Below are positions 5,519-52,765 of a DNA stretch of 64,000 bases, one piece after another; position 1 is the first letter of the stretch, and each line of letters opens with the position of its first letter. The notes below the pieces were generated by a model, which was not told the origin of the DNA, did not search any database, and saw only the letters and a list, made by a program, of their open reading frames with translations. Source of the DNA: an uncultured Alphaproteobacteria bacterium (GTDB lineage Bacteria; Pseudomonadota; Alphaproteobacteria; CAAGCB01; CAG-977); the NCBI GenBank assembly GCA_937912005.1, contig CALDOX010000014.1, positions 205,186-269,185 of the forward strand, written 5' to 3'. A program made the translations under genes and the position numbers.

Positions 5519-5557
5519 CGCTTTTCCCGAATTGTTTTTCTTGTGACTGTAGCAGGT

Positions 5558-8590: not shown

Positions 8591-8601
8591 CGATACCGCC
8601 T

Positions 8602-9510
8602 TTACGAGAATAATAAAGAAGAAAGTTTCCGTCGTCCGGCAACCGTAATCGGATTCATCTGACCCAGCGCGGCAAAGATTTTAAAGAGTTGCTGTCTGGC
8701 AGCATCGTTGTTCCATTCACGATCCTTTTCAATGACGGCGATCAGCTGATCAATGGCTTGTTCCGGCTGATTGGCGGCAAACAGGGCGCAGGCATAATCG
8801 AAACGGGCCTGCAAATCGTCGGGATTCTGTTCAACTTTTTTTGCCAAAGAATCGGGAGAGGGAGCGTTTTTGGCTTCTAAGGCAAGCTTTAACGCTGTTT
8901 TTGCGGCATCCAGATCAGGGCTTTTAACGGAGGAGTCTAATCCGTCCGCCAGATCCTGAGCGGCATCCAGTTGTCCCAATTGAACAAAACACCGAATCAT
9001 ACCGGCAAAAGCGGCCGGATTAGTTTCATCTTTTTCCAAAACGGCGGCGTAAGTCTCCAATGCTTCCTGAGGCTGTTTGTTGTTCAGCTTTTCCGTCGCG
9101 TCCTTGAGCATTTCATCCAAAGACAGCGCCGCTTTTCCGATCAGCGCCTGCATAACGGCTTTTAATTGAGACTCGGGGATTGCGCCGGCAAAGCCGTCCG
9201 CTAAACCGCCTTTAGCAAAAATCATTGTTGTCGGAACACTTTGTATCCCCAGCTGCATTGCTAAAGGCTGCGCTTCGCCGATGTCAAATTTAACCAACGC
9301 CGCTTTGCCGTTGGCTAATCGAACGTATTTTTCCAACAAGGCGGCAAATTGATCGCATGCCGGATTGTTCGGCATCGCGAAGTAAGCCAGAACCACCCTG
9401 TTTTTAGAATCATCAACAACATCCGTTTTGAAAGACTGCATCGTTCCGTTTTTAACAGGAGTGTCCTGAGCGGCGGAAAGAGAGTTGACATCTTCAAAAT
9501 TCAAAGACAT
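8602..9510 (-). CDS. thioredoxin-domain / TPR co-chaperone (YbbN/CnoX-like)
   Basis: Thioredoxin-like N-terminal region plus TPR-like helical repeats; start MSLNFEDV preceded by a GGGAGG RBS. Confidence 0.65.
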   Translation of the reverse strand: MSLNFEDVNSLSAAQDTPVKNGTMQSFKTDVVDDSKNRVVLAYFAMPNNPACDQFAALLEKYVRLANGKAALVKFDIGEAQPLAMQLGIQSVPTTMIFAKGGLADGFAGAIPESQLKAVMQALIGKAALSLDEMLKDATEKLNNKQPQEALETYAAVLEKDETNPAAFAGMIRCFVQLGQLDAAQDLADGLDSSVKSPDLDAAKTALKLALEAKNAPSPDSLAKKVEQNPDDLQARFDYACALFAANQPEQAIDQLIAVIEKDREWNNDAARQQLFKIFAALGQMNPITVAGRRKLSSLLFS

Positions 9511-9690
9511 AAGGCCTCCCGTAACAAGAAAACAAACGCCGTTATCATATATGAAAAAAGCTTCGATTAAAACGGTAAATAAGAATATTTCCCCCTGTAA
9601 CAACGGATATGAAAAAAAATTCTTTAAAATGAAAAAATTCTGTTGCAAAAGAATTTTCTGTCGTTATAATCCTCCTCTGTAAATAGGAGC

Positions 9691-9765
9691 GCGGGTGTAG
9701 CTCAGGGGTAGAGCGCAACCTTGCCAAGGTTGATGTCGAGGGTTCAAATCCCTTCGCCCGCTCCA
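9691..9765 (+). tRNA. tRNA-Gly(GCC)
   Basis: GCGGGTG acceptor, anticodon loop CTTGCCAAG, T-loop GGTTCAAATCC, CCA end. Confidence 0.9.
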
Positions 9766-9811
9766 ATAAATTTTCAAGGGGGGAGGGAAAATACTCCTCT
9801 TTTTTTTATTT

Positions 9812-10645
9812 TCAGAATTTTCCGATATCGAGAAAAGACGACTGCAGTGCGATGTATTCGTCCCGGGTCAGACAATCCGGTTTGCTTTTCTTGGCTTCCG
9901 CGTAAAGCTGCTGAAAATCTTCACGCGTCATCCGATAAGTTGTGTCTTCCTCTTTTTCTTCGGCCAACATCATTTGTTGCTGCTTCAGTTCGTAATCAAC
10001 GTATTCATCTGCGGCAACACAGCCGTCATTGTTTTTATCCATGCGGTAAAAATCTTCTCCGGCGATCGCGGCGCCGGTGTTTTTTATAAAATTCTGCGCC
10101 ATTTCATCGCTGTTCATTGATTTCATTCTGTTTGACAGATCATCCAGTTTCTTCATAGCCTCATCCAGTTTTTTCATACTGTCTTCAAGCGGAGGCATGT
10201 CTTTAAAATCAATGACGCCGTCACCGTTTATGTCTTTCTTTTTAAATTCCAGTTTTATTATCATGCCGCTGAATTTTTTTGCGAACGCTTCCGTCTCCGT
10301 TTTGTTCAAAAGGTGATCGTGATCAATATCTGACTCGTTGAACATTTTTTCGGCTTCCCCGGCCGTTTCCTTTTTTTCTTTTTCGGTCAAATAGGAAAGA
10401 GCTTCCAATCCTTTGATCATTTCTTTGATTTCCGTGTCGGAAATATATCCGTCACTGTTAATGTCCAGCAAAGACAGACGATCCCGCAAATTTTCCTGAA
10501 AATCCCTGTTTGTTTCCAAACGGGCCCGCAGCATCTCTTCGGTGAGACTGAAAATGTCCGTATCCGGTTCGTTTCCGGCGGGAGAGGCATAAGCGTTCTG
10601 TCCGTTAAAAAAAATCAAATATAAAAGAAAAAACAACACCTTCAT
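9812..10645 (-). CDS. secreted EF-hand calcium-binding protein
   Basis: Signal peptide and at least three DxNxDGxI EF-hand loops (DINSDGYISDTE, DINGDGVIDFKD, DKNNDGCVAADE). Confidence 0.6.
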   Translation of the reverse strand: MKVLFFLLYLIFFNGQNAYASPAGNEPDTDIFSLTEEMLRARLETNRDFQENLRDRLSLLDINSDGYISDTEIKEMIKGLEALSYLTEKEKKETAGEAEKMFNESDIDHDHLLNKTETEAFAKKFSGMIIKLEFKKKDINGDGVIDFKDMPPLEDSMKKLDEAMKKLDDLSNRMKSMNSDEMAQNFIKNTGAAIAGEDFYRMDKNNDGCVAADEYVDYELKQQQMMLAEEKEEDTTYRMTREDFQQLYAEAKKSKPDCLTRDEYIALQSSFLDIGKF

Positions 10646-39473: not shown

Positions 39474-39550
39474 GCGCCCATAGCTCAACTGGATAGAGCA
39501 TCTGACTACGGATCAGAAGGCTGAGAGTTCGAATCTTTCTGGGCGCGCCA
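39474..39550 (+). tRNA. tRNA-Arg(ACG)
   Basis: GCGCCCA acceptor, anticodon loop CTACGGA (ACG), T-loop GTTCGAATC, CCA end. Confidence 0.9.
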
Positions 39551-39553
39551 ATC

Positions 39554-39581
39554 AAAACCCGCAGAATACTGCGGGTTTTTT
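39554..39581 (+). terminator. rho-independent terminator after tRNA-Arg
   Basis: aaaacccgcag-aatact-gcgggtttttt. Confidence 0.7.
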
Positions 39582-39616
39582 GTTGTCCAGAGAAATGACA
39601 GCTCTTCATAAAAATC

Positions 39617-39660
39617 GGTTTTTCTAACATTTTTCTAACAAAAAAATTTTTTCTAACATT
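39617..39660. repeat. three direct repeats of TTTCTAACA (candidate recombinase arm-type site or iteron)
   Basis: tttctaaca at 39621, 39632 and 39650, just inside the island junction. Confidence 0.4.
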
Positions 39661-39879
39661 CGAGAATAAGAAAATTTAAGCTCAAAACGCATCTTTTCTG
39701 ACCTCGGAATAAGGGAAAAATCGGAAATATCGGAAAAATTGTTCCGACAATCCAACATTTCTGCGTCTTTTTTCAGAGTCGTTCTTCGGGAAAAATATGG
39801 AAAAATGGGAAATATTGTTCAGGCATAAAGAAAAGGCGCATCCGAACGGACACGCCTTTGTCTGTTTTTGAAACCGGTT

Positions 39880-40053
39880 TTAGTTCAATGCGTCTTTCAA
39901 ACCTTTACCCGCTTTGAATTTCGGCTGTTTGGAAGCAGGGATTTTAATCGTTTCGCCTGTACGCGGATTGCGACCTTCCGTCGCTTTTTCAGAATCAACT
40001 TTCGTCAAACCGGTGTTCTTCGCGATTTCAGCCACTAATTCTGCTTTGTTCAT
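39880..40053 (-). CDS. HU-family DNA-binding protein remnant (internal deletion, 57 aa)
   Basis: [18 protein letters not shown]...[31 protein letters not shown] matches the HU N- and C-terminal segments but lacks ~33 central residues; AGGAG RBS present. Confidence 0.55.
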
Positions 40054-40089
40054 AATGCAACTCCTTAAAAATATAAACAGAAGCACAGA

Positions 40090-40434
40090 TTATCCCGTTT
40101 CAAGCCCTTTCGCAAAGTCTTTTCGTGTTTCCACGTCAAAAATATCCTGAAACGCTATCTTGGTTTTAACGACCGTCAGCGTTTGGAACGTAAGGTCAAT
40201 ATCAGTAATCATACCCGTCTTTGTGATGTAAGCGTCCTTGTCGTAATACGTTACGGAAACAAGGTCGTGTCGCCGAAGGCTCTTTAACTTTTCGGACAAG
40301 GCTTCCGTTTCATCTTCGGACAGTTCTTTTTTCGGTTCCGAAACGCGCTGTTTTTCCAATATCATTTGGTAATACTCGGTCAAAGCGTTGAATGGCAGAA
40401 ATTGACGGGCGCGTTCCTCTTTACTCGCCGCCAT
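40090..40434 (-). CDS. YolD-like protein (UmuD-analogue accessory of Y-family polymerases)
   Basis: Size (~114 aa) and sequence pattern of the YolD-like family; start overlaps the polymerase stop (ATGGCGGCGAGTAA). Confidence 0.55.
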   Translation of the reverse strand: MAASKEERARQFLPFNALTEYYQMILEKQRVSEPKKELSEDETEALSEKLKSLRRHDLVSVTYYDKDAYITKTGMITDIDLTFQTLTVVKTKIAFQDIFDVETRKDFAKGLETG

Positions 40435-41689
40435 TGTGTCCTCCGATCAACTTGTTTCGCACACGCGCCGTCGCTTTGTCCGTATAACTCATTCCTCGAA
40501 GCAAAGCGTTTTTCCCGAATTTTTGCTTGATCGCCAAGACAGCCTCTTGCATTTTCCTCTCTTTCTCGTCTTCTCCCTTTTTGGAAAACAAATCCGGCTG
40601 TAATGCCGCGTGATCTTCGTCAACAATGTTCAGAAAACAGATGGACAGTTTGCGAATGGGGGCTGTCCGGCGCGTCGTTCGGCGATAAATGCTTTCAAAC
40701 TCTTTGACGAGCTTATCATAAGAGGACGTCTGTTCGGACAGCCGCTCCGAGCCGCCGGTTGACGGCGCAACATCGCGGGATTATCCGACCCCCAGAGAGA
40801 TGCCGGAAGCGACCATATGCTTTTCAATCAGTTCGAGGGAAAGCATATCGACCATTTCTTTCAGGCAAATCAAAGCGTCTTCAAACGTGTAATCGGAAAA
40901 CAGGATTTGACTGTTCGATAAGGAGTTCGTCTTGGATTTATAAGCGTGAATATCCCTGATTTCGCAAGGCTCCCGCCCGTGCGCGTGGTCGATCAGAAAC
41001 TCCGCATTGATGCCGAACTCTTTATACAAAAGCCGTTCGTCGCAATGGGCGACGCCGTAAAGATCGTAAATTCCGTATTTTTCCAATCGGAAGGCTATTC
41101 CTCTCCCGATATTCCAAATATCCGTTATCGGACGGTGATGCCACAGCGTCTGCTCAAACGCTGGAATATCCAAATATCCGATATGGTCGGGAATGTGCTT
41201 AGCCGTTATATCCAAAGCGACTTTCGCCAGAAAAAGGTTCGTTCCGATTCCCGCCGTCGCGCAGATTCCGGTTCGCTCCATTACGGCGTTCATCAGCATT
41301 ACAGCCATTTCTTTCGGCGTTTTATGATAAATGTGCAGATAATTGGTCGCGTCAATGAACACTTCGTCAATCGAATACGGGTGAATGTCGTCCGGGGCGA
41401 CAAAGTTCAGATAAGTGCCGTAAATGTCCGCGGACACTTCCATATACCGTTTCATACGAGGCAGAGCTGTAATGTATCGGACGTTTTTCGGAATTTCAAA
41501 AATGCGGCAACGGTTATGTATTCCCAAATCTTTCATCGCCGGAGTGATCGCCAGACAGATTCCGCCGCGTCCCCGCGCGGGATCGGCAACGACAAGGTTC
41601 GTCTTAAACGGATCAAGACCGCGTTCCACGCATTCCACGGACGCGTAAAAAGATTTCAGGTCGATACACAAATAAGTCTTGTCCGGCAT
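40421..41689 (-). pseudogene. Y-family DNA polymerase (UmuC/UvrX-like) interrupted by one in-frame TAA at 40781-40783
   Basis: N-terminal 302 aa carry Y-family palm/finger motifs (LCIDLKSFYASVE, FIDATN). The same frame continues past the TAA to the characteristic C-terminus KQKFGKNALLRGMSYTDKATARVRNKLIGGHN. Confidence 0.7.
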
Positions 41690-41775: not shown

Positions 41776-42002
41776 TCTTGATTGTCAATTCCCTCCGCCT
41801 AACGGAAGAAAAACGGTTTCCCCGACTTTCGCTCCAGTGTCGTTGCAAGCCGAGGGCGATACCCCTCCGTTTTTCTTGGAATGACAATCGCTTTCTTCTC
41901 TCCGACGAAGCACCTCGAAAGGGTTTCAGGCGCGATGCCAAAAACCCTTTAACAAGTGCTTTTTACAGAGAAGGAGCTTTCAATATGACTGATAAATTCG
42001 AC
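41776..42002 (+). repeat. structured leader repeat copy 1 (long imperfect hairpin 41778-41889, second hairpin 41918-41950, RBS, first 6 codons of ardC)
   Basis: About 90% identical to 45482-45706; arms TTGATTGTCAATTCC / GGAATGACAATCG; aaagggttt...aaaccctt hairpin. Confidence 0.7.
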
Positions 42003-42857
42003 ATCATCGAAACCGTTTCAAATACCATCATCGAACGCTTGGAAAACTTTTCCGGCGAATGGGAAAAGCCGTTCATTTCCTCTTTTGCCCGGAACATCAC
42101 GACCAAAAAGGCTTATCGCGGCATCAACATTCTGATTTTGAACTTTGCCGCTTTGTTCAACGGTTTTTCCTCGTCCGTTTGGGGAACTTATCGCCAATGG
42201 CAGGATAAAGGCTATCAGGTCAAGAAAGGCTCAAAGGCGACGACCATCGTTTTCTGGAAGCCGCTTTCGTATAAATGCGAAGTCGAAAACACCGAAACAG
42301 GCGACATCGAAGAAGTCGAAAATCAGGCTTTTGTCGCCCGTGCTTATTCCGTGTTTAACGGTTCGCAAGTCGAGGGATTCGGCGAAGACATCGAAAAAAC
42401 CGAATTTAGCGTTGAAAAGGACGTGATGGCGTTCTTTGAAAACACGGACATCACATATTTTTACGGCGCGACTTTGGCAGGCTACGACCCGAAAAACAAT
42501 GTTGTCTTAATGCCGGAAAGAAAAGACTTCAAAACGGAAACCGGCTTCGTTTCGACTTTGGCGCACGAAACAATCCACGCGACCGGACACAAGAACCGCT
42601 TAAACCGGGATATGAAAGGCCGTTTCGGAAATGAATCCTACGCCTTTGAGGAACTGATCGCCGACATCGGCGCGGGATTTGTCGCCGGATATTTGGGTTA
42701 TGACTACCAATTCAGCAAAAACAACCTTGCCTACTTAAAGTCGTGGCTCAAGGTTTTGAAGAACGACAAAAAGGCGATTTTCAAAGCCTGCTCCGAAGCG
42801 CAAAAGGCTTTTGACTATCTGCTGACATTCCAGGAAATCGGACGGGAAGCGGCTTGA
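41985..42857 (+). CDS. ardC: ArdC-like antirestriction protein (N-terminal ssDNA-binding domain plus zincin-like metalloprotease)
   Basis: N-domain pattern WGTYRQWQDKGYQVKKGSKATTIVFWKP; HExxH motif HETIHATGH; AGGAG RBS; internal start at MTDKFD. Confidence 0.7.
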   Translation: MTDKFDIIETVSNTIIERLENFSGEWEKPFISSFARNITTKKAYRGINILILNFAALFNGFSSSVWGTYRQWQDKGYQVKKGSKATTIVFWKPLSYKCEVENTETGDIEEVENQAFVARAYSVFNGSQVEGFGEDIEKTEFSVEKDVMAFFENTDITYFYGATLAGYDPKNNVVLMPERKDFKTETGFVSTLAHETIHATGHKNRLNRDMKGRFGNESYAFEELIADIGAGFVAGYLGYDYQFSKNNLAYLKSWLKVLKNDKKAIFKACSEAQKAFDYLLTFQEIGREAA

Positions 42858-42887: not shown

Positions 42888-43049
42888 ATGAAGATTGCAT
42901 TTTTCAGACTGACGGTTTACGGCGCGAACGGATACGAAAAAGAACATTTCGACTTTGACAGCAAGGCCGCCCAACTGTCGAAATTTTACGAACTGATCGC
43001 GCAGGGATACAAGCGCGACGATTTGGAAAAAACGACCTATTATTTCTAA
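42888..43049 (+). CDS. small hypothetical protein (53 aa) co-transcribed with ardC
   Basis: Strong RBS (aggagaaagg); followed by a perfect 9-bp stem hairpin at 43053-43079. Confidence 0.3.
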   Translation: MKIAFFRLTVYGANGYEKEHFDFDSKAAQLSKFYELIAQGYKRDDLEKTTYYF

Positions 43050-43310
43050 AAAATCGGGCGGAGGTTTCCGCCGCCCGATCCGTTCGCCCAACCACTCCAC
43101 AACACAGTTGCGCCCGAACGGATATATAAGAATATTTTAACAACAAACAAACTATTAAATAGAGATTTTTTCTATAACTATAAAGGGATTGTTTTTCGGG
43201 AAAATGTAACATCTAATTTTTTTAGCTTCTAAATGCGAATACGACTAAAAAAACGATTATTTTTAGAAATATAATATTATTTATTTAATATATATATGCT
43301 GTTTGAAAAA

Positions 43311-44078
43311 TTATAATACATATCTCGACACAGCACTGTTATATATAGAGCGCATTTCTGTAAAAACATTGTCGATAAACACTAGAACAGATACGTTTAT
43401 AAAAAAATTACTCTTATTTTTGTGCGATAAAACATCCAAAGATGGGAAATAAGGATGATGAACAACATTATGAGCTTTTTCGTTTCGTATTTTTATAACA
43501 TTTTCGTAAATTTTTTTTATATCAAGCTCATTCTTTTTTTTGCCAGCGTTTTCCATATATTTCCCATACCAAGAAGCCATATGTTTATTTTTTTCTTTTT
43601 TTTGTTTGAAAAAATCATACATATACATCGTCATAAACGTTCTTTTAAACTCTTTAAACGCTATATTGTTTACAGAAAGAAATTTTGCTTTTGAAAACAT
43701 CTTATATATATTAAAGCATGTTTTTATAAACTCTTCTTTTTTATTCCATATATCTTTCGTATCTTTCTCGTTCTTTATTTTTTCTATTACATCTTTTTGT
43801 ATTGAATATACATTATTGATTGCTTCTGACGAAGAAGATAACTTTTTTGATCCATGGATTATATTATATCGCACGTCTGGAAATTCTGTTCCGATCTCCC
43901 ATAATATGTTATCGATCTTTTGCTCCAATGTTCCAGTCATTTTTAATAAAAGAGATGTTAAAATATAATCATTTAAAGGGTATGTTGATATACTATAATT
44001 AGCATTATTTGACAACAATAAATATTCCGTCAAAAACACATCAATGCGTGTATCCATTATATTCTTTGAATGAATCAT
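43311..44078 (-). CDS. hypothetical protein with C-terminal R-x4-H motif (candidate HEPN / Abi_2-like RNase)
   Basis: IRNEKAHNVVHH near the C-terminus; start ATG overlaps the stop of the upstream DUF262 gene (ATGA); very AT-rich. Confidence 0.3.
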   Translation of the reverse strand: MIHSKNIMDTRIDVFLTEYLLLSNNANYSISTYPLNDYILTSLLLKMTGTLEQKIDNILWEIGTEFPDVRYNIIHGSKKLSSSSEAINNVYSIQKDVIEKIKNEKDTKDIWNKKEEFIKTCFNIYKMFSKAKFLSVNNIAFKEFKRTFMTMYMYDFFKQKKEKNKHMASWYGKYMENAGKKKNELDIKKIYENVIKIRNEKAHNVVHHPYFPSLDVLSHKNKSNFFINVSVLVFIDNVFTEMRSIYNSAVSRYVL

Positions 44079-45346
44079 CTTAAAAGCTTCCCATATATTT
44101 CTATTGAATCTCGAAGTCTCTCACGGATTGGACCTATTTTCCCAACAGATTTTGTGTCTTGAACAGAAGAACTTTTAGATGCAATTTTTTCTGATAATTT
44201 TTGAATACGATCATCGTCTAGATTAACATCTTTCTCTTTAAAGACAGACCAAAACAATAAGCCAAATATGTAGTAATCGGCTTCTGTTATTGTTTTAAAA
44301 TGAAGATCTCTTTTTATTTTTTTTAATAAACTACAAAACGGTGTCATACGTTTTATAAAATCATTTTTAAATTCACAAAAAAGATTCTTTCCTACATAAC
44401 GAGGATCCGCTTCATTAACAACATAACTAACATACGCTGATATGTATGCTTCAAAAGGTTTTAATTTTGAGCCATACCCCACAGCAACACGAAGCGTCAC
44501 AGGAACGGTATCTTTTATTAATTCAGATGCTTGGGCTGTAAACGCCAAGAAACGAGCAAAATCTATTTTTGAATTACCAATTTTTGCATCTGCTAATTCT
44601 GCAGGTTGGAAGAAATCTTTTCGTCCTGGATTTAGCCAATATAACGCCGCACGATTTTCCTCATTGGTTAAAGGAGTTCTTGATGATAGCGAGTTTATAC
44701 TTCTAAATATACGAGAAAAAAGAATCTTTTCATTGTCTGCTTTTCCTGAATTTTCTATTATGTATGAAAAACCGAGATAACAATTCTTTAAAAAAGAACT
44801 ATCAAAATCTATTTTTTTAAATTTTTCTATTAATTCGGCATCAACATCTGATGCCGTTAAGTCTGAAATCTTGATGTATTTTCCTGTTTCTAATAAATTT
44901 CGTTTTAGTTTTTCAATATTTTCTTCTTCTTCAAATTTTTGCTGTATTCGAGAGAAAGTCCACTCATAATAAGCGTTAACATCTTCCTCTTGTGTTGTAT
45001 CTTCTTCATTGTAATCTTCACTATACGCGAGATTTTCTATTTTTGGAGCAGGCTTAGGCCATATTCCCAAATAAGTTAACAAAATGGAACTTAATCTTTG
45101 TTGCCCATCCAATATATAATTAACCTTTTTCTCATTCTCTGTATTTGAGGATATTAAAACAGGAGGGACAAAGGACCCTTCTTTAATATCTATCATCAGT
45201 TGCAAAGCCATAGAAGGTTGCCAAACAAAATACCTTTGGTATGGTGGAATAACAATATCCTTATTAAGGATCATACTTATCCAATGCCAAAGAGAATACT
45301 CTCCATAATAAACTGTAAACTTATTCAAGATAAGAGCTCCTCCCAA
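44075..45346 (-). CDS. DUF262 (ParB/GmrS-like NTP-binding) domain protein lacking the DUF1524 HNH half
   Basis: Hallmarks VIPPYQRYFVW and ILDGQQRLSSIL; no H..N..N His-Me motif in the C-terminal half. Confidence 0.6.
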   Translation of the reverse strand: MGGALILNKFTVYYGEYSLWHWISMILNKDIVIPPYQRYFVWQPSMALQLMIDIKEGSFVPPVLISSNTENEKKVNYILDGQQRLSSILLTYLGIWPKPAPKIENLAYSEDYNEEDTTQEEDVNAYYEWTFSRIQQKFEEEENIEKLKRNLLETGKYIKISDLTASDVDAELIEKFKKIDFDSSFLKNCYLGFSYIIENSGKADNEKILFSRIFRSINSLSSRTPLTNEENRAALYWLNPGRKDFFQPAELADAKIGNSKIDFARFLAFTAQASELIKDTVPVTLRVAVGYGSKLKPFEAYISAYVSYVVNEADPRYVGKNLFCEFKNDFIKRMTPFCSLLKKIKRDLHFKTITEADYYIFGLLFWSVFKEKDVNLDDDRIQKLSEKIASKSSSVQDTKSVGKIGPIRERLRDSIEIYGKLLR

Positions 45347-45481
45347 TATACCTTATTATATCCTATTCGCTACATTTCATTTTTCAACAAAAATTTTTTC
45401 TCAAAAAAAATAGATTCTTAATGTATGCAACTTATTCGGGAATATTCTGCATATATGTCATTTTTTACCCTTCCCCTTACG

Positions 45482-45706
45482 TCTTGATTGTCAATTCCCT
45501 GCCGCCTGACGGAAAAAAACGGTTTCCCCGACTTTCGCTCCGGTGTCGCTGTAAGACGGGTGATACCCCTCCGTTTTTCTTGGAATGACAATCGCTTTCT
45601 TCTCTCCGACGAAGCACCTCGAAAGGGTTTCAGGCGCGATGCCAAAAACCCTTTAACAAGTGCTTTTTACAGAGAAGGAACTTTCAAAATGACTGATAAA
45701 TTCGAC
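45482..45706 (+). repeat. structured leader repeat copy 2 (same hairpins, RBS and first 6 codons)
   Basis: About 90% identical to 41776-42002. Confidence 0.7.
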
Positions 45707-46102
45707 CAAGCCTTAAACGAAATGGAAACGACGCTTAAACCGTTTATGCCGGCCAAGCAGGCTCAAACCCTCATCGAAAACTTGCACCGTTCCGAAGAAG
45801 CCGAAGCGTTCGCGGACATCATTCTGAATCTTGCCGAGCGTATTAAAGCGATGCCGCAAGTCTATGAAACGGACGGACAAGGCAAAAACGCTTTGGCTCA
45901 ACTGCACTATTTTGTCGGTTCTTATGATGCCTACATCGTCGAAAAAGACACCGCCGAAAAGCAAATTCAGGCGTTCGGTTGGGCAAGTTTCGGATACGGT
46001 TTCGAGGCCGGATACATCTCCGTTGACGAACTTTTAGAGCTTGCGGAATTGGATTTATTTTTCACGCCTTGCCCCGTCGGACAGGCTATCAGGGAGGATT
46101 GA
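45689..46102 (+). CDS. DUF2958-like protein (conjugative leading-region family)
   Basis: Pattern LHYFVGSYDAYIVE...FGWASFGYGFEAGYISVDEL...LDLFFTP. Confidence 0.55.
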   Translation: MTDKFDQALNEMETTLKPFMPAKQAQTLIENLHRSEEAEAFADIILNLAERIKAMPQVYETDGQGKNALAQLHYFVGSYDAYIVEKDTAEKQIQAFGWASFGYGFEAGYISVDELLELAELDLFFTPCPVGQAIRED

Positions 46103-46644: not shown

Positions 46645-47016
46645 TTGAACGACTTTATTGCGAGGCTAAAAATGCCAATGTTGCGTAAATCGTTCAGAAT
46701 AGAAAAAGAAATTTGGGACGCGCTTGTCGCCGAAAAACAATGTCCGTCCCGCCTGATCCGGTTGTTCATTCTTGCGGGGATTCATCAGATGAAGATCCCG
46801 CACTATGACGAAATCCTCCTGCTGACAAAGCTCGAAGAACAAGCCCGAAAGGTCGGCGTCAACACCAATCAAGCTGTCCGCGCTTTGAACACGACGTTGA
46901 TAAAAAAGCAATCTCTTGAAGAAAAAACTTTACGGGATTTACAGCAGGCTTGCAGAGAACTTCACGCGCTCCGAGAAAAAATCAACAGACTTTTGGCGGC
47001 GTATTATGGCGAATAA
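46645..47016 (+). CDS. mobC: MobC-family relaxosome accessory protein
   Basis: vGvNtNQavRaLN motif (VGVNTNQAVRALN); stop overlaps the relaxase start. Confidence 0.6.
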   Translation: MNDFIARLKMPMLRKSFRIEKEIWDALVAEKQCPSRLIRLFILAGIHQMKIPHYDEILLLTKLEEQARKVGVNTNQAVRALNTTLIKKQSLEEKTLRDLQQACRELHALREKINRLLAAYYGE

Positions 47017-47737
47017 ACGGAACTGGTTAGACGAACATATCCGGGGTATATACGTCAAACAGCAACGCTTTCCGGTTCACTATTCCCCTCCGGCAAGACA
47101 GAGGGCGACACTTTCTTTCAAAGTGCCGCCGCCGGAAGCTATGGTTAAAGTCGCTTTCTATGTCAAATCACTGCAAGGGGCGAAGAACATCGCTCATTAT
47201 ATCGCTCACGGTTCGGAGGGAATGGAAAAAGACGCCCGTGTTTATGACGACGAACGGCGACTGATCCCGACCGAGAAACTGAACGAAACGATAGACGCTT
47301 ATGATCTGGAACAGCGGCGGAAGAACGGGAACGCGATGGTTCACCTGATCGTATCTTTTCCCAAAAGAATGAACGTCAGCGAGGACGAAGCATACCGGTT
47401 TATTGAGCGGTATATGGAACCTTTCGCGGAAAGAGGGTATCGGTATTTATACGCCGTTCACACACATCAATCGGCAACGCACGGACACATTTTGTTGAAA
47501 ATGTCGAACGGACGGGAGCGGCTGAAACTCAAAAAGCCGCAACTTCAAATGCTCCGGCAACATCAGGTCGAAGTCGCCAAAGAGTTCGGTTGGGAGATGC
47601 AGGCGACACGTTTTCAGGACAGAGATTTCTCTCTGACGCAGATGGTTATTCCGCGCAAGCACAAAACGATCCGGCAGCTTCGCGAACTTCACGAACGGAG
47701 AAGATCGGTGGAACAAACGGAGGAACGGGAAAGGTAA
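47006..47737 (+). CDS. MobA/VirD2-type relaxase (relaxase domain only, 243 aa)
   Basis: Histidine triad VHTHQSATHGHIL; N-terminal region AHYIAHGSEG; internal start MANKRNW coupled to mobC. Confidence 0.6.
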   Translation: MANKRNWLDEHIRGIYVKQQRFPVHYSPPARQRATLSFKVPPPEAMVKVAFYVKSLQGAKNIAHYIAHGSEGMEKDARVYDDERRLIPTEKLNETIDAYDLEQRRKNGNAMVHLIVSFPKRMNVSEDEAYRFIERYMEPFAERGYRYLYAVHTHQSATHGHILLKMSNGRERLKLKKPQLQMLRQHQVEVAKEFGWEMQATRFQDRDFSLTQMVIPRKHKTIRQLRELHERRRSVEQTEERER

Positions 47738-47805
47738 AAACGACTTGGCTTTTTGATAAAAATAATCACAATTTGTTGTATGTTAAAAAATGTATTTATT
47801 GGTCA

Positions 47806-47831
47806 AGCAGGGAATTATCCCTGCTTTTTTT
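47806..47831 (+). terminator. terminator/attenuator-like hairpin upstream of the tail-fibre gene
   Basis: agcaggg-aattat-ccctgc followed by a T7 run. Confidence 0.5.
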
Positions 47832-47844
47832 ATTTGAGGTAAAA

Positions 47845-49506
47845 ATGACGGTAAGTACAACAACAAACAAAGTTGTTTATATCGGGAACGGAATTGCAAC
47901 TACATTTGCAATCCCGTTTCCTTTTTTGGAAAGGGAGCATTTAAAGGTCAGACAACTTTTAAACAACGTGCAGACGGAAAGGACGGATTGGACGGTTTCG
48001 GGCGGGAATATGGTTTTTGCGACGGCTCCGGCGGATGATGCGCAAATCGTGATTATGCGCGAAGTGCCGTTGACGCAGGAAACTGACTATCGGGAAAACG
48101 AGGTTTTGCCGGCTGAAACGCTTGAACGCAATTTCGACAAGCTGACAATGCAGATTCAACAGCTGAAAGAGCAGGCGGAACGGGCGGTAACGGTGGACTT
48201 ATTTTCAGCTTCTGATCCATCTGTATTAGTAGATAAAATTGAAAAACTTTACCGTATCAAAGACGAGATAGTTGTTGCGGCTCAAAACATCTCATCGTTG
48301 ACGACAGTTTCGGACGATATTTCTTCTATTCATACCGCGGCTACTCACATATCTGCTATTACTGATGCGATAAATCAAGCAACACAAGCCTCCAGCAGTG
48401 CCAATAAAGCCCGAATCTGGGCAGAAGGAACGGATGAGGAAATCGTGTCTGTCAATGGAATCCATTCCGCAAAAAGATGGGCAGAAATTATGGATACGAC
48501 GGAATTTAACAAAACGTACACAGCAAGCCGTGTTTTGTCTGTTCCACAAAACATAAAAATTTCTCTGACGGCAGGAGTTGTAAAACTAACTGCAGGAAGT
48601 GTCGTTTATGATGGGAACGGTAACAATATGAGGCTTCAGCAAGACCTTTCTTTAAACGGTGGATTTCAAGGAAAAGGACTGCTGGTTGTTTCAAAGACGG
48701 GTCATTTGTGGGAAATGGATTTAACACATGTCTTTTCCCAAACAACAGAACCGGCGGCTCCGTATCTTTGGTATAATCCGAACACCAAGATAACAAGATT
48801 TAACGATAATTTGGGAACGGTCGGCGAAGTATATTTGCCATGCGCGCAAGTTGTCTATTTGGGCTCGTCTTATGTTCAGATAGATCGAGTATTCAACGGA
48901 ATCGGTTGTATTGCTTCAACCGTATTTGTTTTGCCTCATATCAAAGGACAGGCCTTACAATCAATCAGTTCGGACGGTACTTGTTCTAATACGATATGGG
49001 AAACAAGTGGTGTTCAGACAGTCGCAGTAAATAATACGCTTCATCTTGTTGTTGATGCGAACGGGATGCTGAATACGAAAAGCACTTTTAATGTTTTTTC
49101 CGATATTGGTTTCACAGACTTAGGAATAGTCGTTGTCAGCGGAGGATCGATTGTTTCGATGCCGAGCAGAAGTATAGATACAATCAATACATATCCAACC
49201 TCTGAACTGGCCAAAATGGGAATGCCCGGAAGCAAAAGGCTTATTGTAGTAACAGGTGCTTCTTTCGCAACCTACATCGCCCCAGCAAACAGATTTTTTA
49301 CAATTTCCGGAACAGTTGAGGTGAATAGTTTTGCCTTTGTGGATATTGAGAACCTCTCAACTTTTATCAAAGATTCCGATCATTCTTATACGTTAGGCTC
49401 AACTATATCCGCCTATATTCCGGCAAAAGCGGGAGAAAGCGTCCAAATCGCTTACGGACAAACTACACCAGTTGTTTCATTTATCTACGCAGAAGGAGAA
49501 GAATAA
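47845..49506 (+). CDS. phage tail-fibre protein with T7 gp17-type N-terminal (tail-attachment) domain
   Basis: N-terminus KVVYIGNGIATTFAIPFPFLEREHLKV...DYRE resembles T7 gp17 (VLTYQLDGSNRDFNIPFEYL...DYRF); Ala/Ser-rich shaft repeats; beta-rich C-terminus; GAGG RBS. Confidence 0.6.
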   Translation: MTVSTTTNKVVYIGNGIATTFAIPFPFLEREHLKVRQLLNNVQTERTDWTVSGGNMVFATAPADDAQIVIMREVPLTQETDYRENEVLPAETLERNFDKLTMQIQQLKEQAERAVTVDLFSASDPSVLVDKIEKLYRIKDEIVVAAQNISSLTTVSDDISSIHTAATHISAITDAINQATQASSSANKARIWAEGTDEEIVSVNGIHSAKRWAEIMDTTEFNKTYTASRVLSVPQNIKISLTAGVVKLTAGSVVYDGNGNNMRLQQDLSLNGGFQGKGLLVVSKTGHLWEMDLTHVFSQTTEPAAPYLWYNPNTKITRFNDNLGTVGEVYLPCAQVVYLGSSYVQIDRVFNGIGCIASTVFVLPHIKGQALQSISSDGTCSNTIWETSGVQTVAVNNTLHLVVDANGMLNTKSTFNVFSDIGFTDLGIVVVSGGSIVSMPSRSIDTINTYPTSELAKMGMPGSKRLIVVTGASFATYIAPANRFFTISGTVEVNSFAFVDIENLSTFIKDSDHSYTLGSTISAYIPAKAGESVQIAYGQTTPVVSFIYAEGEE

Positions 49507-50012: not shown

Positions 50013-51047
50013 TTATTGATTTTTTCTAAATTTGGCTTTCATGATGATTTTATACATTTTTTTCTTTTTTGATATTCTCTTTTTCAGCTTCCCAAAAGAA
50101 ATCATTTTTAAAAATGAGTAAAAAATGTATTTTAAGAAGACTGCTTTTTTTTGCTTAATGAAATCATACTCTTTTGAATACGTTTTTTTTAATTCTTCAC
50201 AAAGAGGCTTATTACAGTCAATTTTTTGAATAAATGTCATCAATGTGAACAAAAACGTATCTTCTTCATCGCATAAAAAAAAACGTTGTTTTTCTTTCAG
50301 AAAACGAAGATAAGCCAGTCCGCATTTTTCAAACCATTCTTCGGTTTTCATCATGCCTGTCCAAATGCCACCTTTATTCCGGCGATAAACAGCCATCACA
50401 TCCGGCAGGAACGCTATTTTCCCTGTTTGTGCGTGCAGTAAATGCAGAAACCAGTCTGCCGGTAAAATCCCGCTCGGAATCGAATCCAAAGAATCTTGAT
50501 GAAAGCGCCATCTGTAAACAACAGAGTTTGTTTGAATGAAATTATGATCCAACAAATCTTTTAGTGATAATTCTGTTTTATATAAGCGATATTTATCTTC
50601 CGGAAAAATTTCATCCGGTAAAGAAGCGTCGTTATAATGAACTGTTACAGGATGAAAGCAAACAGAAAAATCAGGGTGAGCATCTAAAAAATCGACTTGT
50701 TTTTGCAATTTTAAAGGATCTGTCCAATAATCATCACCCTCACATAAAGCGACATATTGACCGCGAATCATCGGAAAAAGAATGTCTTTGCCGATTTCTT
50801 TCTTCCCCCATTGATTTTCTGTCTGATAGACACAGCGGAATAAGTGAGGATACTTGCCTTCATATTCTCGAATAATGTTCGCCGTTTTATCTGTCGAAGC
50901 GTCGTCGTTAATTAAAACTTCAAACGGGAAATTTGCCTTTTGCATCACGAAACCATTCAAACATTCGCGAATAAACGGTTCTTGATTGTATGCCAAACAA
51001 ACAATAGAGAGTTTTATATTATCGCCATTTGATTTTTTGTAAGTCAT
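50013..51047 (-). CDS. family 2 glycosyltransferase
   Basis: GT-A N-terminal domain (SIVCLAYNQEPFI, INDDASTD, DxD in CEGDDYW); AT-rich. Confidence 0.65.
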   Translation of the reverse strand: MTYKKSNGDNIKLSIVCLAYNQEPFIRECLNGFVMQKANFPFEVLINDDASTDKTANIIREYEGKYPHLFRCVYQTENQWGKKEIGKDILFPMIRGQYVALCEGDDYWTDPLKLQKQVDFLDAHPDFSVCFHPVTVHYNDASLPDEIFPEDKYRLYKTELSLKDLLDHNFIQTNSVVYRWRFHQDSLDSIPSGILPADWFLHLLHAQTGKIAFLPDVMAVYRRNKGGIWTGMMKTEEWFEKCGLAYLRFLKEKQRFFLCDEEDTFLFTLMTFIQKIDCNKPLCEELKKTYSKEYDFIKQKKAVFLKYIFYSFLKMISFGKLKKRISKKKKMYKIIMKAKFRKNQ

Positions 51048-51076: not shown

Positions 51077-52765
51077 TTATCCCCATTGCTTTTTTATCCA
51101 ATTAAATAAATCGTTTTCCCGTTCTTTAATAGTAACTTTATTCCAACCTTTTTTCTTAATTAAATCAGAAACCTCACGTTCAATAAATAAATCTCTATAT
51201 GCGTCTTTTTTCTCATCCGGTTTTTTATCTTGAAGAGAGCTATTCTTAGAGGCTTCTAAGATCAAAAGATTACCCAATCGATGTTTATAGATTTTATCAT
51301 TTTTTTCTGCATCAAAAGAATCCACGCAGTGTTCTGTATCTGCTTTTGGGAAAATATGCTCAATAGTATCTTTTACAGGAGAAGTTAAAATTGCATTCCA
51401 AGTTTTTTTCTGTATTTGCTTTGTTTTCCGCGCTTTTTCAGCTAAATATAATTCTCGTTTATAAAATAAGTATTTTAATTCTTCATCCCAAGTTTCATAT
51501 AAATTTGATTTTTTTAAAAACTTAATAGCTTGTTCAATATTACAATCTTCAGAAAGTTTCTGTATTTGTTTTATAGCATCTTTGTATTTAATTACTCCTT
51601 TAATGATATTCCGTCCAATGACAATAAAATCACCTACTTTAAAACGAGCATCTTTCTGTTCAAGGCCATAAATTTTAAACGTTGATTTCTCCCATTCCGC
51701 AATCAATTCTTCCTTTTGATCATGAGTATAATTGGACAACCAAATACATAAAGCTAAAAAGCGAGGCTGTTGAATACGAATTAAAAATCTAATGCTATTA
51801 TTTATTTCTAATTCTTTTAATTTAGAAATATATTTCTTTAATTCTCTTGCTATTTCTATAGCATTTGAAGATTTTCCTTCACTTTTTTTCATTAAGTATA
51901 AAACACTGTCTTCCTCTTTTAAAAAACGGCTGGTTGTATCTTTTAAAGTAGCAAGATAACGAATTGCCATTGAACCAAATTCTTTATTTTCACCTAATTC
52001 ATCATAGATAGAAGACCAAATTTTATGCATAGATTCAATTTGAGATTTTGTTGCGGTTTTTTCATAAAGAAGCCCCATCATCATACATTTTAATCTATCC
52101 AACCATTCAACGGGGAGACCGCGAAAATTAAGAACTTCAAAGGTTCTATAGACTACACTTTCATCATCAATGGTATGCAATATAAAAGAGAGTTTGTTTT
52201 TTAATAAAGCATATAAATCAAGAATCTTTGCATTATTTTTGTTTATCCATTTATCAACGAATTCTTGACATAACTGTATTGAATTTTTTAATAACCGATC
52301 TGAAAGTCTTTGAATATCGTCATCAGTATTATTAATTGTTCCTTTTCTTAGCCATTCAGAGAATATTTCATGTTTATCGTGGTTCATTTTTAAAATAGGC
52401 GTTGTGTGCTTATCTGATTTTACAAGAATCCGTCCTAATTCATTTTTATCTTCCGTATTATCCTCTAACTTTAAGTAGATTGCTTTCAATAAAATCAACA
52501 AAGTAGTGATTCTTTGTTGTCCGTCAACGATATCATAAATTGTATATTCTGTTGTGCTGCCTAAATTTTCTTTTTCTTTGTGTTTTAAACAAACCAATGT
52601 AGCCATGAAATGTTCAGAACGTTTATGCTCATAAACATTTTCTATATCAGAAAACAATGCCTTGATTTGCTTCTCTTCCCAACTATAAGCTCTTTGATAT
52701 TCTGGAATCGAAAAAAGGCGTTCATTTAACAGCTGACTTAAAGTATACAATTCCGGTTTTAACAT
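51077..52765 (-). CDS. GmrSD-family type IV restriction endonuclease (DUF262 plus DUF1524)
   Basis: N-terminal IPEYQRAYSW and VDGQQRITTL; C-terminal His-Me finger EHIFP...LGNLLILEASKNSSLQDK. Confidence 0.7.
   Translation of the reverse strand: MLKPELYTLSQLLNERLFSIPEYQRAYSWEEKQIKALFSDIENVYEHKRSEHFMATLVCLKHKEKENLGSTTEYTIYDIVDGQQRITTLLILLKAIYLKLEDNTEDKNELGRILVKSDKHTTPILKMNHDKHEIFSEWLRKGTINNTDDDIQRLSDRLLKNSIQLCQEFVDKWINKNNAKILDLYALLKNKLSFILHTIDDESVVYRTFEVLNFRGLPVEWLDRLKCMMMGLLYEKTATKSQIESMHKIWSSIYDELGENKEFGSMAIRYLATLKDTTSRFLKEEDSVLYLMKKSEGKSSNAIEIARELKKYISKLKELEINNSIRFLIRIQQPRFLALCIWLSNYTHDQKEELIAEWEKSTFKIYGLEQKDARFKVGDFIVIGRNIIKGVIKYKDAIKQIQKLSEDCNIEQAIKFLKKSNLYETWDEELKYLFYKRELYLAEKARKTKQIQKKTWNAILTSPVKDTIEHIFPKADTEHCVDSFDAEKNDKIYKHRLGNLLILEASKNSSLQDKKPDEKKDAYRDLFIEREVSDLIKKKGWNKVTIKERENDLFNWIKKQWG

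What the first reader, a model, noticed from the sequence alone, without database searches (positions are those of the whole stretch)
43311..45346. AT-rich two-gene operon (DUF262 protein plus R-x4-H/HEPN-like protein) inside the anti-restriction region of the mobile element: candidate undescribed defence/abortive-infection module
The two genes are translationally coupled by an ATGA overlap. The first (423 aa) carries the ParB/GmrS-like DUF262 hallmarks (IPPYQRYFVW, DGQQRL) but lacks the DUF1524 His-Me nuclease half that completes classical GmrSD enzymes. The second (255 aa) has a C-terminal IRNEKAHNVVHH segment that fits the HEPN Rx4-6H RNase signature in its Abi_2 (AbiD/F)-like RNxxAH form. 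The pair sits in a roughly 2.3 kb islet much more AT-rich than its surroundings, flanked on both sides by anti-restriction-type genes (ArdC, DUF2958) that carry the same structured leader. The element also carries a complete GmrSD elsewhere. A DUF262 NTP-sensing module paired with a HEPN effector is not a named system I recognise; it looks like a split or re-wired type IV / Abi system carried as cargo.
Basis: partly seen in the sequence, partly recalled or inferred. Interest (0 to 1): 0.75.

Follow-up and report, generated by a model that had tools for sequence, protein, structure and literature searches.

The report
DUF262 sensor plus HEPN nuclease defence pair
This is a real, conserved two-gene module, a ParB-like DUF262 NTPase gene coupled to a divergent HEPN ribonuclease-type gene. 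It sits in a slot that holds Shedu or Gabija anti-phage systems in sister elements, so it is very probably an anti-phage system, but its design matches the already validated PD-T4-2 system.

Summary
Two minus-strand genes overlap by ATGA inside a 2.36-kb islet of 29% GC, against 48% in the flanks.

- **Gene A** is a DUF262/GmrSD_N protein with no DUF1524 domain. Its likely length is 417 aa, not 423.
- **Gene B** (255 aa) matches no curated family. An exhaustive search found about 250 relatives. Among 109 aligned members, R198 is invariant and H203 is present in 108. An N-terminal GxxEQK motif is also conserved.
- **Pairing:** all 28 loci with a complete A-family gene have a B-family gene directly downstream. 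None of 117 generic DUF262 loci do. The two proteins co-diverge (Mantel r = 0.76).
- **Location:** the pair fills a cargo slot bracketed by two copies of a ~230-nt structured leader. The same slot holds Shedu, or Shedu plus Gabija, in sister contigs.

The design is not unnamed. DUF262 plus HEPN is PD-T4-2 (Vassallo 2022), and ParB-HEPN operons were noted in 2013. This pair fails the PD-T4-2 models, so I rate it a new variant of a known kind, of moderate interest.

The parts
44075..45328 (-). Gene A: DUF262/ParB-like NTPase followed by a C-terminal helical domain. Likely 417 aa; the mechanical ORF runs to an upstream in-frame TTG at 45346 (423 aa). Predicted sensor subunit.
   Evidence: - Pfam GmrSD_N E 4.8e-21 over residues 25-236, no DUF1524.
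- Motifs QRxxxW, DGQQR and FxxxN are conserved in 69-70 of 70 homologs.
- AF2 model pLDDT 88.6.
- The 417-aa form is the public gene call.
43311..44078 (-). Gene B: 255-aa all-helical protein of a divergent HEPN family (RNxxAHN motif at residues 198-204, GxxEQK at 49-54). Predicted RNase effector.
   Evidence: - No direct Pfam, PADLOC or NCBIfam hit.
- 252 representatives at E<=1e-3 by exhaustive phmmer.
- Motif conservation counts.
- Family members hit Abi_2 (7 of 78), HEPN_MAE_28990 (3) and HEPN_RiboL-PSP (2), and PADLOC AbiD (28 of 109).
- AF2 model pLDDT 84, pTM 0.85.
44075..44078 (-). ATGA stop/start overlap that couples translation of gene A and gene B.
   Evidence: Read directly from the sequence. 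Homologous pairs also overlap or abut.
45337..45387 (-). Upstream region of gene A: Shine-Dalgarno GGGAGGAG (45344-45337) and a sigma-70-like site TTGAAA-16-TAGGAT (45387-45360).
   Evidence: Sequence and consensus scan. The number of promoter-like sites is no higher than in shuffled sequence, so this is only a plausible own promoter.
43047..43072 (-). Intrinsic-terminator-like hairpin plus T-run downstream of gene B. It lies in the shared backbone, just after the convergent ArdC/53-aa unit.
   Evidence: Consensus scan. Count not above the shuffle expectation.
43125..45481 (.). The AT-rich cargo slot (2,357 bp, 29.1% GC) that contains only the two genes and their control regions.
   Evidence: GC values. 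Sequence shared with sister contig L093 ends at about 43124, and leader copy 2 starts at 45482.
41776..42002 (+). Leader repeat copy 1, upstream of and running into the ArdC start codon.
   Evidence: Direct repeat, 98% identity over 149 nt and 82% over 77 nt. ssDNA fold -42.7 kcal/mol, z -4.4. Two hairpins with 3 compensatory pairs.
45482..45706 (+). Leader repeat copy 2, upstream of and running into the 138-aa ORF. It marks the right edge of the cargo slot.
41985..42857 (+). ArdC-type anti-restriction gene (backbone, left of the slot).
   Evidence: Pfam ArdcN 7e-33 and MPTase-PolyVal 1e-37.
45686..46102 (+). 138-aa backbone gene to the right of the slot.
   Evidence: No Pfam hit at E<=1 apart from noise.

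Best explanation
The pair is a self-contained two-gene anti-phage module, built on the same sensor-plus-effector plan as PD-T4-2, and carried as horizontally acquired cargo in a defence hotspot of a small integrated mobilizable element.

**Gene A, the sensor/switch.** It is a ParB/sulfiredoxin-fold DUF262 NTPase followed by a helical domain. That helical domain is probably analogous to the DNA-binding 'ParBDB' or middle domain of NsnA, SspE and GmrSD. In SspE, GmrSD and BrxU, this module binds NTP and DNA, and NTP hydrolysis switches on a nuclease in the same polypeptide. Here no nuclease is fused.

**Gene B, the effector.** It is translationally coupled to gene A and is a divergent HEPN domain protein. 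Its Rx4H dyad (R198, H203) is predicted to form a metal-independent endoribonuclease site, probably in a dimer.

**Proposed sequence of events.** A and B form a complex in which B is held inactive. When A meets phage DNA or an infection cue, its NTP-dependent conformational change releases or activates B. B then cuts host and phage RNA, which stops phage growth, probably by abortive infection.

**Shown.**
- Domain identities and motif conservation.
- Strict gene pairing and co-divergence.
- Foreign base composition.
- Occupation of a slot that holds Shedu or Gabija in sister elements.

**Inferred.**
- Physical A-B interaction.
- RNase activity and its target.
- The trigger.
- The abortive outcome.
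For: 1. **Gene A is a canonical DUF262.** Pfam hit. Motifs I-III are conserved in 69-70 of 70 homologs. The fold matches BrxU, SspE and DndI. No DUF1524 was found in it or in any of the 120 listed homologs.
2. **Gene B family conserves the HEPN dyad.** R198 is in 109/109, H203 in 108/109, N199 in 105, A202 in 108 and N204 in 106. G49, Q53 and K54 are in 109/109.
3. **Weak links to HEPN families.** Abi_2 in 7/78 members (best 7e-5), MAE_28990 in 3, RiboL-PSP in 2. PADLOC AbiD in 28/109 (best 2.6e-6) and PD-T4-2_B in 1.
5. **Pairing.** 28 of 28 loci with a complete A-family gene have a B-family gene directly downstream on the same strand, against 0 of 117 generic DUF262 loci. This holds across Spirochaetota, Bacteroidota, Bacillota, Fusobacteriota and Pseudomonadota. 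Further pairs appear. Mantel r = 0.76, with 0 of 2000 permutations as high.
6. **Hotspot.** Between the same two leader copies, sister contigs carry Shedu (SduA 2.5e-102) or Shedu plus Gabija (GajA 8e-208, GajB 3e-196).
7. **Other contexts.** Tn7-like cargo next to an MmeI-type enzyme in Moraxella, two Dam-family methylases in F. nucleatum, and IS/Shedu-fragment/T5orf172 neighbours.
8. **Precedent.** PD-T4-2 ('DUF262, HEPN') protects E. coli against T4, both natively and when cloned (PMC9519451). DUF262 plus ParBDB has been proposed as the sensor with RNase effectors in Menshen (PMC12065111).
Against: - The window's gene B has no significant hit to any HEPN model, nor does the family consensus sequence.
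- Foldseek against the PDB found nothing.
- hhalign against two PD-T4-2-like partners put both motifs in register but was not significant (E 0.04-0.06).
- No experiment exists for this family.
- The trigger, the target, the A-B interaction and the abortive-versus-direct outcome are all inferred by analogy.
- Some family members sit alone among housekeeping genes.
- No homolog was found in the phage or plasmid record collections.
Confidence: 0.65

Rival explanations
1. Toxin-antitoxin or addiction module. B is a HEPN toxin and A is its protein antitoxin. The main role is to stabilise the mobile island, not to defend against phage.
For: - The two genes are tightly coupled and co-diverge.
- The pair sits on a decaying mobile island.
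- Some members are isolated in chromosomes, one of them next to a PhdYeFM antitoxin gene.
Against: - The upstream partner is a large, motif-perfect NTPase with a DNA-binding-type domain. That is far more than a neutraliser needs.
- The slot is used by Shedu and Gabija, not by TA pairs, in sister elements.
- The related design PD-T4-2 defends against phage (PMC9519451).
- TA-like behaviour and abortive defence are not mutually exclusive.
Confidence: 0.12
2. Restriction-like DNA-targeting system. The DUF262 protein itself, through its ParB-fold or its conserved C-terminal acidic residues, nicks or cuts foreign (possibly modified) DNA. The HEPN protein is an accessory second prong against transcripts, as Anantharaman et al. 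proposed for R-M-linked HEPN genes.
For: - ParB-fold proteins are treated as DNases in PMC3710099.
- D262 and E299 are invariant, and D357 and R410 are in 69 of 70, in the C-terminal half of A.
- Methylase genes lie next to the pair in F. nucleatum, and an MmeI-type enzyme lies next to it in Moraxella.
Against: - No nuclease fold was found for the C-terminal half.
- In the characterised DUF262 enzymes, the DUF262 part is the NTPase/sensor and DUF1524 does the cutting (PMC10952713, PMC12065111).
- The window islet holds no methylase.
Confidence: 0.13
3. Gene B is not a HEPN RNase but a helical adaptor or regulator with a chance-like RNxxAH motif. The pair has a non-defence role such as DNA segregation or regulation of the element.
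For: - No significant HEPN profile hit for the window protein or the family consensus.
- Foldseek found nothing.
Against: - Near-invariance of R, H and the flanking N/A/N in 109 diverse sequences is not chance.
- The sporadic profile hits go to HEPN families first: Abi_2 tops the Pfam tally, and AbiD is the only PADLOC model hit by more than one member.
- The same two motifs occur in the small partners of PD-T4-2_A-type DUF262 genes.
- Defence-hotspot location.
Confidence: 0.07

Closest known systems
PD-T4-2 (Vassallo et al. 2022, E. coli ECOR65)
   Same: A two-gene operon in which a DUF262 protein without DUF1524 is followed by a HEPN protein with an Rx4H motif. It is validated as anti-phage against T4 (PMC9519451). 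Its mechanism is still described as largely uncharacterised (PMC12065111).
   Different: - PD-T4-2 spans about 1.5 kb, with an A model of 363 positions and a B of roughly 165 aa that matches RiboL-PSP and MAE_28990 by HHpred.
- Here A is 417 aa. It matches PD-T4-2_A only over residues 26-89 (E 2.5e-3), whereas true relatives such as L037 score 6e-60 over the full length.
- Here B is 255 aa, carries a long helical insert, and does not match PD-T4-2_B.
ParB-HEPN gene neighbourhoods of Anantharaman et al. 2013
   Same: The paper lists Abi2/AbiD/AbiF-type HEPN genes next to a ParB + HNH protein in Victivallis and Fusobacterium. It also lists RiboL-PSP and MAE_28990 HEPN genes in operons with ParB. 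F. nucleatum carries a member of exactly this pair family.
   Different: That was a computational note only, with no family definition, name or test. I could not confirm that their Fusobacterium example is the same gene pair.
Abi_2 / AbiD / AbiF lactococcal abortive-infection HEPN proteins (PF07751)
   Same: The same RNxxAH form of the HEPN motif. It is the most frequent weak profile hit of B-family members.
   Different: By my recollection, not checked here, AbiD and AbiF act as single genes. The window protein and the family consensus do not reach any threshold against Abi_2. Here the protein is strictly tied to a DUF262 partner.
GmrSD / BrxU / SspE type IV-like enzymes
   Same: The N-terminal DUF262 NTPase with DGQQR, and the closest solved folds. 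A genuine full-length GmrSD (HEC-06-like, 7e-49) lies 6 kb away in the same island.
   Different: No DUF1524 His-Me nuclease domain. The effector is a separate HEPN protein, so the predicted target is RNA rather than DNA.
Menshen (NsnABC)
   Same: A DUF262 plus C-terminal helical domain as the proposed DNA sensor, with RNase-type effectors (PMC12065111). A-family members hit the NsnA model weakly (best 3e-15).
   Different: No NsnB ABC-ATPase gene and no inPIN-effector NsnC. This is a two-gene system, not a three-gene one.

Membership tests
PD-T4-2 | Two-gene operon: a DUF262 protein lacking DUF1524, followed by a HEPN protein | tested here: met
   The design is the same as in PMC9519451 Table S1.
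PD-T4-2 | The A subunit matches the PD-T4-2_A profile over its full length | tested here: not met
   For the window gene A, E is 2.5e-3 and only residues 26-89 match. The family best is 5e-12. L037 and L028 score 6e-60 and 5e-54 over the full length.
PD-T4-2 | The B subunit matches the PD-T4-2_B profile (small RiboL-PSP/MAE_28990-type HEPN of roughly 165 aa) | tested here: not met
   No hit for the window gene B. One of 109 family members hits, at E 0.0044. B is 255 aa.
PD-T4-2 | Protects against phage | not testable with these tools
   Needs cloning and phage challenge.
HEPN superfamily | Conserved Rx4-6H motif | tested here: met
   R198 in 109/109 and H203 in 108/109, spaced as Rx4H, with flanking N199, A202 and N204 each in 105 or more of 109. 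All 20 distinct pairs carry R[NH]xxAHN.
HEPN superfamily | All-alpha HEPN helical-bundle fold | tested here: inconclusive
HEPN superfamily | Significant profile match to a curated HEPN family | tested here: inconclusive
   None for the window protein or the family consensus. Sub-threshold hits of some members go to Abi_2, MAE_28990, RiboL-PSP and AbiD.
HEPN superfamily | Metal-independent endoribonuclease activity | not testable with these tools
   Needs biochemistry.
Abi_2 (AbiD/AbiF, PF07751) | Match to PF07751 at its gathering score | tested here: not met
   No hit for the window protein at E<=1. Seven of 78 members hit, best 7.2e-5.
DUF262 / GmrSD_N (PF03235) | Profile match above the gathering score, plus motifs QRxxxW, DGxQR and FxxxN | tested here: met
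   76.2 bits against a cutoff of 33.2. Motifs are conserved in 69-70 of 70 homologs. Fold hits to BrxU and SspE.
GmrSD type IV restriction enzyme | C-terminal DUF1524 (GmrSD_C) His-Me nuclease domain | tested here: not met
   No GmrSD_C hit. None in the 120 listed homologs. No His-Me fold hit. The neighbouring gene at 51077-52765 does have it.
Menshen (NsnABC) | An NsnB ABC-ATPase gene and an NsnC effector gene after the DUF262 gene | tested here: not met
   The slot holds only the two genes. Partners in 28 loci are the B family, not ATPases.
HEPN-MNT type II/VII toxin-antitoxin | An adjacent minimal nucleotidyltransferase (MNT) antitoxin | tested here: not met
   The partner is DUF262. There is no MNT gene in the islet.

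The most novel reading that the evidence does not exclude
The pair founds a distinct, widespread and so far unnamed DUF262-HEPN defence family, separate from PD-T4-2. In it a ParB-like NTP switch licenses a trans-acting, enlarged HEPN RNase. Here the pair marks a previously undescribed defence-cargo exchange site, bracketed by repeated structured leaders inside the anti-restriction region of a mobilizable element, where Shedu, Gabija and orphan genes are swapped in and out.
Probability: 0.45. Interest if true: 0.55.

Novelty: new variant of a known kind. Interest (0 to 1): 0.4.

Why it matters
- **A likely blind spot in detection models.** The PADLOC v2.0.0 models, including PD-T4-2_A and PD-T4-2_B, miss this family, and gene B has no Pfam or NCBIfam family. 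If it is active, this would be a second lineage of DUF262 sensor plus HEPN effector systems. The family spans at least five bacterial phyla, including human-associated Fusobacterium, Streptococcus, Neisseria, Prevotella and Treponema.
- **A tractable case for an open mechanism.** How a ParB-fold NTPase without its own nuclease passes a signal to a separate RNase is still unknown for PD-T4-2.
- **The hotspot.** Defence cargo sits on the opposite strand, between two leader-bearing anti-restriction-type genes. This shows offence and defence genes interleaved in one small element, and offers a ready source of further candidates: the 335-aa and 101-aa orphan genes found in the same slot.

Tried and rejected
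- **Direct family scans of gene B.** Pfam, PADLOC and NCBIfam gave nothing.
- **Word-indexed homolog search with gene B.** Only the 98%-identical cluster was found. The exhaustive search was needed.
- **Profile search with the B alignment.** It returned only family members, none with a Pfam annotation.
- **PDB sequence search with the B profile.** Noise only.
- **Foldseek against the PDB with the B model.** No match at E<=0.001.
- **AFDB50 library.** Not available.
- **Family consensus and six diverse members against Pfam.** No significant HEPN hit; the only HEPN match was RiboL-PSP at E 0.36 for the F. nucleatum member.
- **hhalign of the B family against PD-T4-2-like partners from L037 and L028.** Both motifs fall in register, but E is 0.04-0.06 and the probability about 1%, so this counts only as a hint.
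- **Metagenome scan with the L037 partner.** One fragment only; an unproductive use of that cap.
- **Fetching pNP40 (AbiE/AbiF) as a reference.** The accession is not in the collection.
- **tblastn in the phage and plasmid records.** No match for gene A; one partial Fusobacterium chromosome-like record for a B homolog.
- **Rfam on the window and on the leader.** Only three tRNAs.
- **DUF2958 for the 138-aa neighbour.** No Pfam support.
- **GmrSD, Menshen and HEPN-MNT membership.** Considered and rejected; see the membership table.
Full report
**1. What is there**

On the minus strand the window has two ORFs, 44075..45346 and 43311..44078. The junction reads ...AAG CTT TTA AGA TGA with ATG ATT CAT... 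starting inside it. The stop codon of the first gene and the start codon of the second therefore share ATGA.

The mechanical 423-aa ORF begins at a TTG that overlaps a GGGAGGAG Shine-Dalgarno sequence. A second in-frame TTG at 45328 lies 8 nt after that sequence. It gives MNKFTVYYGEYSL..., which matches the N-termini of homologs and is the 417-aa form found in public gene calls. I take gene A as 44075-45328.

A sigma-70-like site lies just upstream, and a terminator-like hairpin lies about 240 nt downstream of gene B. Neither count exceeds what shuffled sequence gives.

The stretch 43125-45481 is 29.1% GC, against 47.6% and 48.4% in the flanks. It is the lowest-GC 2.36-kb stretch in the whole 64 kb.

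**2. Gene A**

Pfam gives GmrSD_N/DUF262 at E 4.8e-21 over residues 25-236, and no GmrSD_C/DUF1524.

A search found 667 homologs. The best 120 are full-length proteins of about 390-460 aa that carry only PF03235. In an alignment of 70 of them, the three DUF262 motifs are essentially invariant:
- QRxxxW (Q37, R38, W42)
- DGQQR (residues 80-84)
- FxxxN (F214, N218)

Several charged residues in the C-terminal half are also conserved: D262 and E299 in all 70 sequences, D357 and R410 in 69.

PADLOC models match only through the generic DUF262 core. These include SspE, HEC-05/06, Orf5, NsnA and PD-T4-2_A.

**3. Gene B**

The window protein has no hit in Pfam, PADLOC or NCBIfam. The word-indexed search found only a 98%-identical cluster.

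The exhaustive HMMER search found 252 cluster representatives at E<=1e-3, nearly all 230-310 aa.

In 109 aligned members:
- R198 is in 109, N199 in 105, A202 in 108, H203 in 108 and N204 in 106. This gives R-N-x-x-A-H-N, an Rx4H HEPN signature.
- G49, Q53 and K54 are in 109 and E52 in 108, forming an N-terminal helix motif, MTGxxEQK.
- D236 is in 109.

When each member is scanned alone, the most frequent Pfam hit is Abi_2 (7 of 78, best 7e-5). HEPN_MAE_28990 (3) and HEPN_RiboL-PSP (2) are also hit, with unrelated families of similar count in between. In PADLOC, 28 of 109 hit AbiD (best 2.6e-6) and one hits PD-T4-2_B.

- the HEPN toxins 8xdj, 5yep and 7ae2, and the HEPN domain protein 4nqf
- the AbiA HEPN, Csm6 and sacsin HEPN

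The top hit, however, is a designed helical filament. Foldseek found nothing. The family consensus sequence does not hit any HEPN model.

My reading is that this is a divergent HEPN family. The support is strong from the motif and moderate from fold and profiles.

**4. Are the two genes a unit?**

I built HMMs of both families and searched six-frame ORFs of every locus fetched.
- All 24 genome and metagenome loci with a complete A-family gene (score above 170 bits) have a B-family gene immediately downstream on the same strand, overlapping or within a few bases.
- None of 67 loci with other kinds of DUF262 protein has a B-family gene.
- In IMG/VR contigs the figures are 4 of 4 and 0 of 50.
- Four further look-ups showed the same pair.

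The hosts named in the records span several phyla: Treponema, Pedobacter, Ferruginibacter, Fluviicola, Prevotella, Streptococcus australis, Saccharospirillum, Neisseria flavescens, Fusobacterium nucleatum and Moraxella osloensis.

Across 20 distinct pairs, the identity matrices of A and B correlate (Mantel r = 0.76; 0 of 2000 permutations as high). Every B has R[NH]xxAHN and GxxEQ.

**5. Where it sits**

The contig is from an uncultured bacterium. Near-identical copies of its FtsK and ArdC proteins are labelled 'MAG: Alphaproteobacteria bacterium'.

Chromosomal genes end at a tRNA (39474-39547): Obg, AIM24 and EAL proteins. They resume at lactate/malate dehydrogenase (52793). Between them lies a decayed island of about 13 kb containing, in order:
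- an HU remnant, YolD, and a truncated Y-family polymerase
- ArdC
- the pair
- a 138-aa and a 90-aa gene
- MobC and a relaxase nuclease domain
- a T7-tail-fibre-like ORF
- a glycosyltransferase
- a full-length GmrSD

A direct repeat of about 227 nt lies at 41776-42002 and 45482-45706. It precedes, and runs into the first codons of, ArdC and the 138-aa gene. It folds into two long hairpins (ssDNA z = -4.4; 3 compensatory pairs among 7 copies). It has no Rfam match.

**6. A defence hotspot**

Contigs from other samples encode the same or a near-identical ArdC and have the same backbone. Between leader copy 1/ArdC/53-aa ORF and leader copy 2 they carry different genes on the opposite strand:
- L095 has Shedu (SduA 2.5e-102).
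- L096 has Shedu plus Gabija (GajA 8e-208, GajB 3e-196).
- L093 has a 335-aa orphan with a weak nucleoside-deoxyribosyltransferase-like C-terminus.
- L094 and L097 have a 101-aa orphan.
- The window and L009-L012 have the DUF262-HEPN pair.

Sequence shared with L093 ends at about 43124, and identity resumes at leader 2. That delimits the slot at 43125-45481, which is exactly the AT-rich islet.

Sharing a slot with two established defence systems is the strongest contextual evidence that the pair is a defence system. Elsewhere the pair lies in Tn7-like cargo beside an MmeI-type enzyme (Moraxella), next to two Dam-family methylases (F. nucleatum), and beside IS, Shedu-fragment and T5orf172 genes. 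It also occurs alone among housekeeping genes.

**7. How it probably works**

In SspE, GmrSD and BrxU, the DUF262 domain binds and hydrolyses NTP and senses DNA. The NTPase cycle activates the fused DUF1524 nuclease (PMC10952713; PMC12065111).

Here the nuclease domain is missing, and a translationally coupled HEPN protein takes its place. The most economical model has three steps:
1. A, made of the DUF262 domain plus a helical DNA-binding-type domain, is the sensor and switch.
2. B is a HEPN endoribonuclease held inactive in an A-B complex.
3. Phage DNA or another infection cue drives an NTP-dependent change in A that frees or activates B. RNA cleavage then stops the infection, probably abortively.

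Only the domain assignments, the pairing and the context are shown. The complex, the trigger, the RNA target and the outcome are inferred.

The rivals are set out in their own section with the tests that would separate them: an addiction module, a DNA-cutting role for A with B as an accessory, and a non-HEPN B.

**8. Comparison with what is known**

The design is not new.
- PD-T4-2 is listed as 'DUF262, HEPN'. It spans about 1.5 kb and was validated against T4 both when cloned and by deletion in ECOR65. Its B subunit matches RiboL-PSP and MAE_28990 HEPN by HHpred (PMC9519451).
- Anantharaman et al. 2013 recorded ParB-HEPN operons for three HEPN families, including Abi2/AbiD/AbiF next to a ParB + HNH protein in Fusobacterium (PMC3710099).

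The window pair is not a PD-T4-2 member by the available models.
- PD-T4-2_A matches only residues 26-89 (E 2.5e-3). Real relatives, L037 and L028, score 6e-60 and 5e-54 over the full length.
- PD-T4-2_B does not match at all, and B is about 90 aa longer.

The small partners of those PD-T4-2_A-type genes carry the same two motifs: CG[ST]LE[QR]... and R-x4-H. hhalign places them in register with the B family, without significance. This hints at a common origin.

The pair is also not GmrSD (no DUF1524), not Menshen (no NsnB or NsnC) and not HEPN-MNT.

**9. Verdict**

I classify the pair as a new variant of a known kind. It is a distinct, phylogenetically broad DUF262-HEPN family that has no Pfam or NCBIfam family for its effector and is missed by the PADLOC models used here.

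Interest is moderate, at 0.4. A specialist would not be surprised by the architecture. The family, and especially the leader-bracketed hotspot, are useful leads.

Noticed in passing
window 41776-42002 and 45482-45706; also L009, L010, L093-L096: A conserved leader of about 230 nt precedes ArdC and the 138-aa gene and includes their first codons. It forms two long hairpins (ssDNA fold z -4.4; 3 compensatory pairs among 7 copies) and has no Rfam match. It could be a single-strand promoter of a transferred strand or a 5'-UTR RNA. I did not resolve which.
   Followed up: partly
window 43125-45481; L095:7156-8574, L096:1421-6759, L093:1177-2184, L094:7141-7446: The slot between the two leader copies is a variable cargo site. 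In sister contigs it holds Shedu, Shedu plus Gabija, a 335-aa orphan with a weak nucleoside 2-deoxyribosyltransferase-like C-terminus, or a 101-aa orphan. The two orphans are untested defence candidates.
   Followed up: partly
window 51077-52765 (-) and 50013-51047 (-): A full-length GmrSD (GmrSD_N + GmrSD_C; PADLOC HEC-06 7e-49 over the full length) is also AT-rich at 29.2% GC. It sits next to a family-2 glycosyltransferase (34% GC) at the far end of the island. This looks like a second foreign defence cargo.
   Followed up: partly
window 39474-41689: The island's left end, next to a tRNA, looks decayed. There is an HU-like remnant (39880-40086). YolD (40090-40434) looks intact at 114 aa, the same length as in sister contig L095. 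The Y-family polymerase gene is cut to 302 aa plus fragments, against 422 aa in sister contigs L094 and L095.
   Followed up: partly
window 46916-47737 and 47590-49506 (+): The relaxase ORF is short (273 aa, nuclease domain only). It overlaps the start of a 638-aa ORF with weak similarity to the N-terminal domain of the phage T7 tail fibre, an odd neighbour for a mobilisation module.
   Followed up: no
Any resemblance rests on short motifs only.
   Followed up: yes
L037:1611-3196, L028:2914-4487, L088:3165-4910: Other short DUF262 genes also pair with small Rx4H proteins. The L037 and L028 genes are PD-T4-2_A/NsnA-type, and their partners (162 and 167 aa) do not hit the PADLOC PD-T4-2_B model. 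In L088 a 325-aa Csm6-like HEPN protein lies upstream of the DUF262 gene. Current models may therefore under-detect DUF262-HEPN pairing.
   Followed up: partly
L155/L156 (Moraxella osloensis), 1-9918: The pair lies in Tn7-like transposon cargo (TniQ/TnsD, TnsE), after a ResIII/DEAD helicase and a T5orf172 gene. In L156, but not L155, an MmeI-type restriction-modification enzyme also lies between TnsE and the helicase. This is a compact defence island on a transposon.
   Followed up: no
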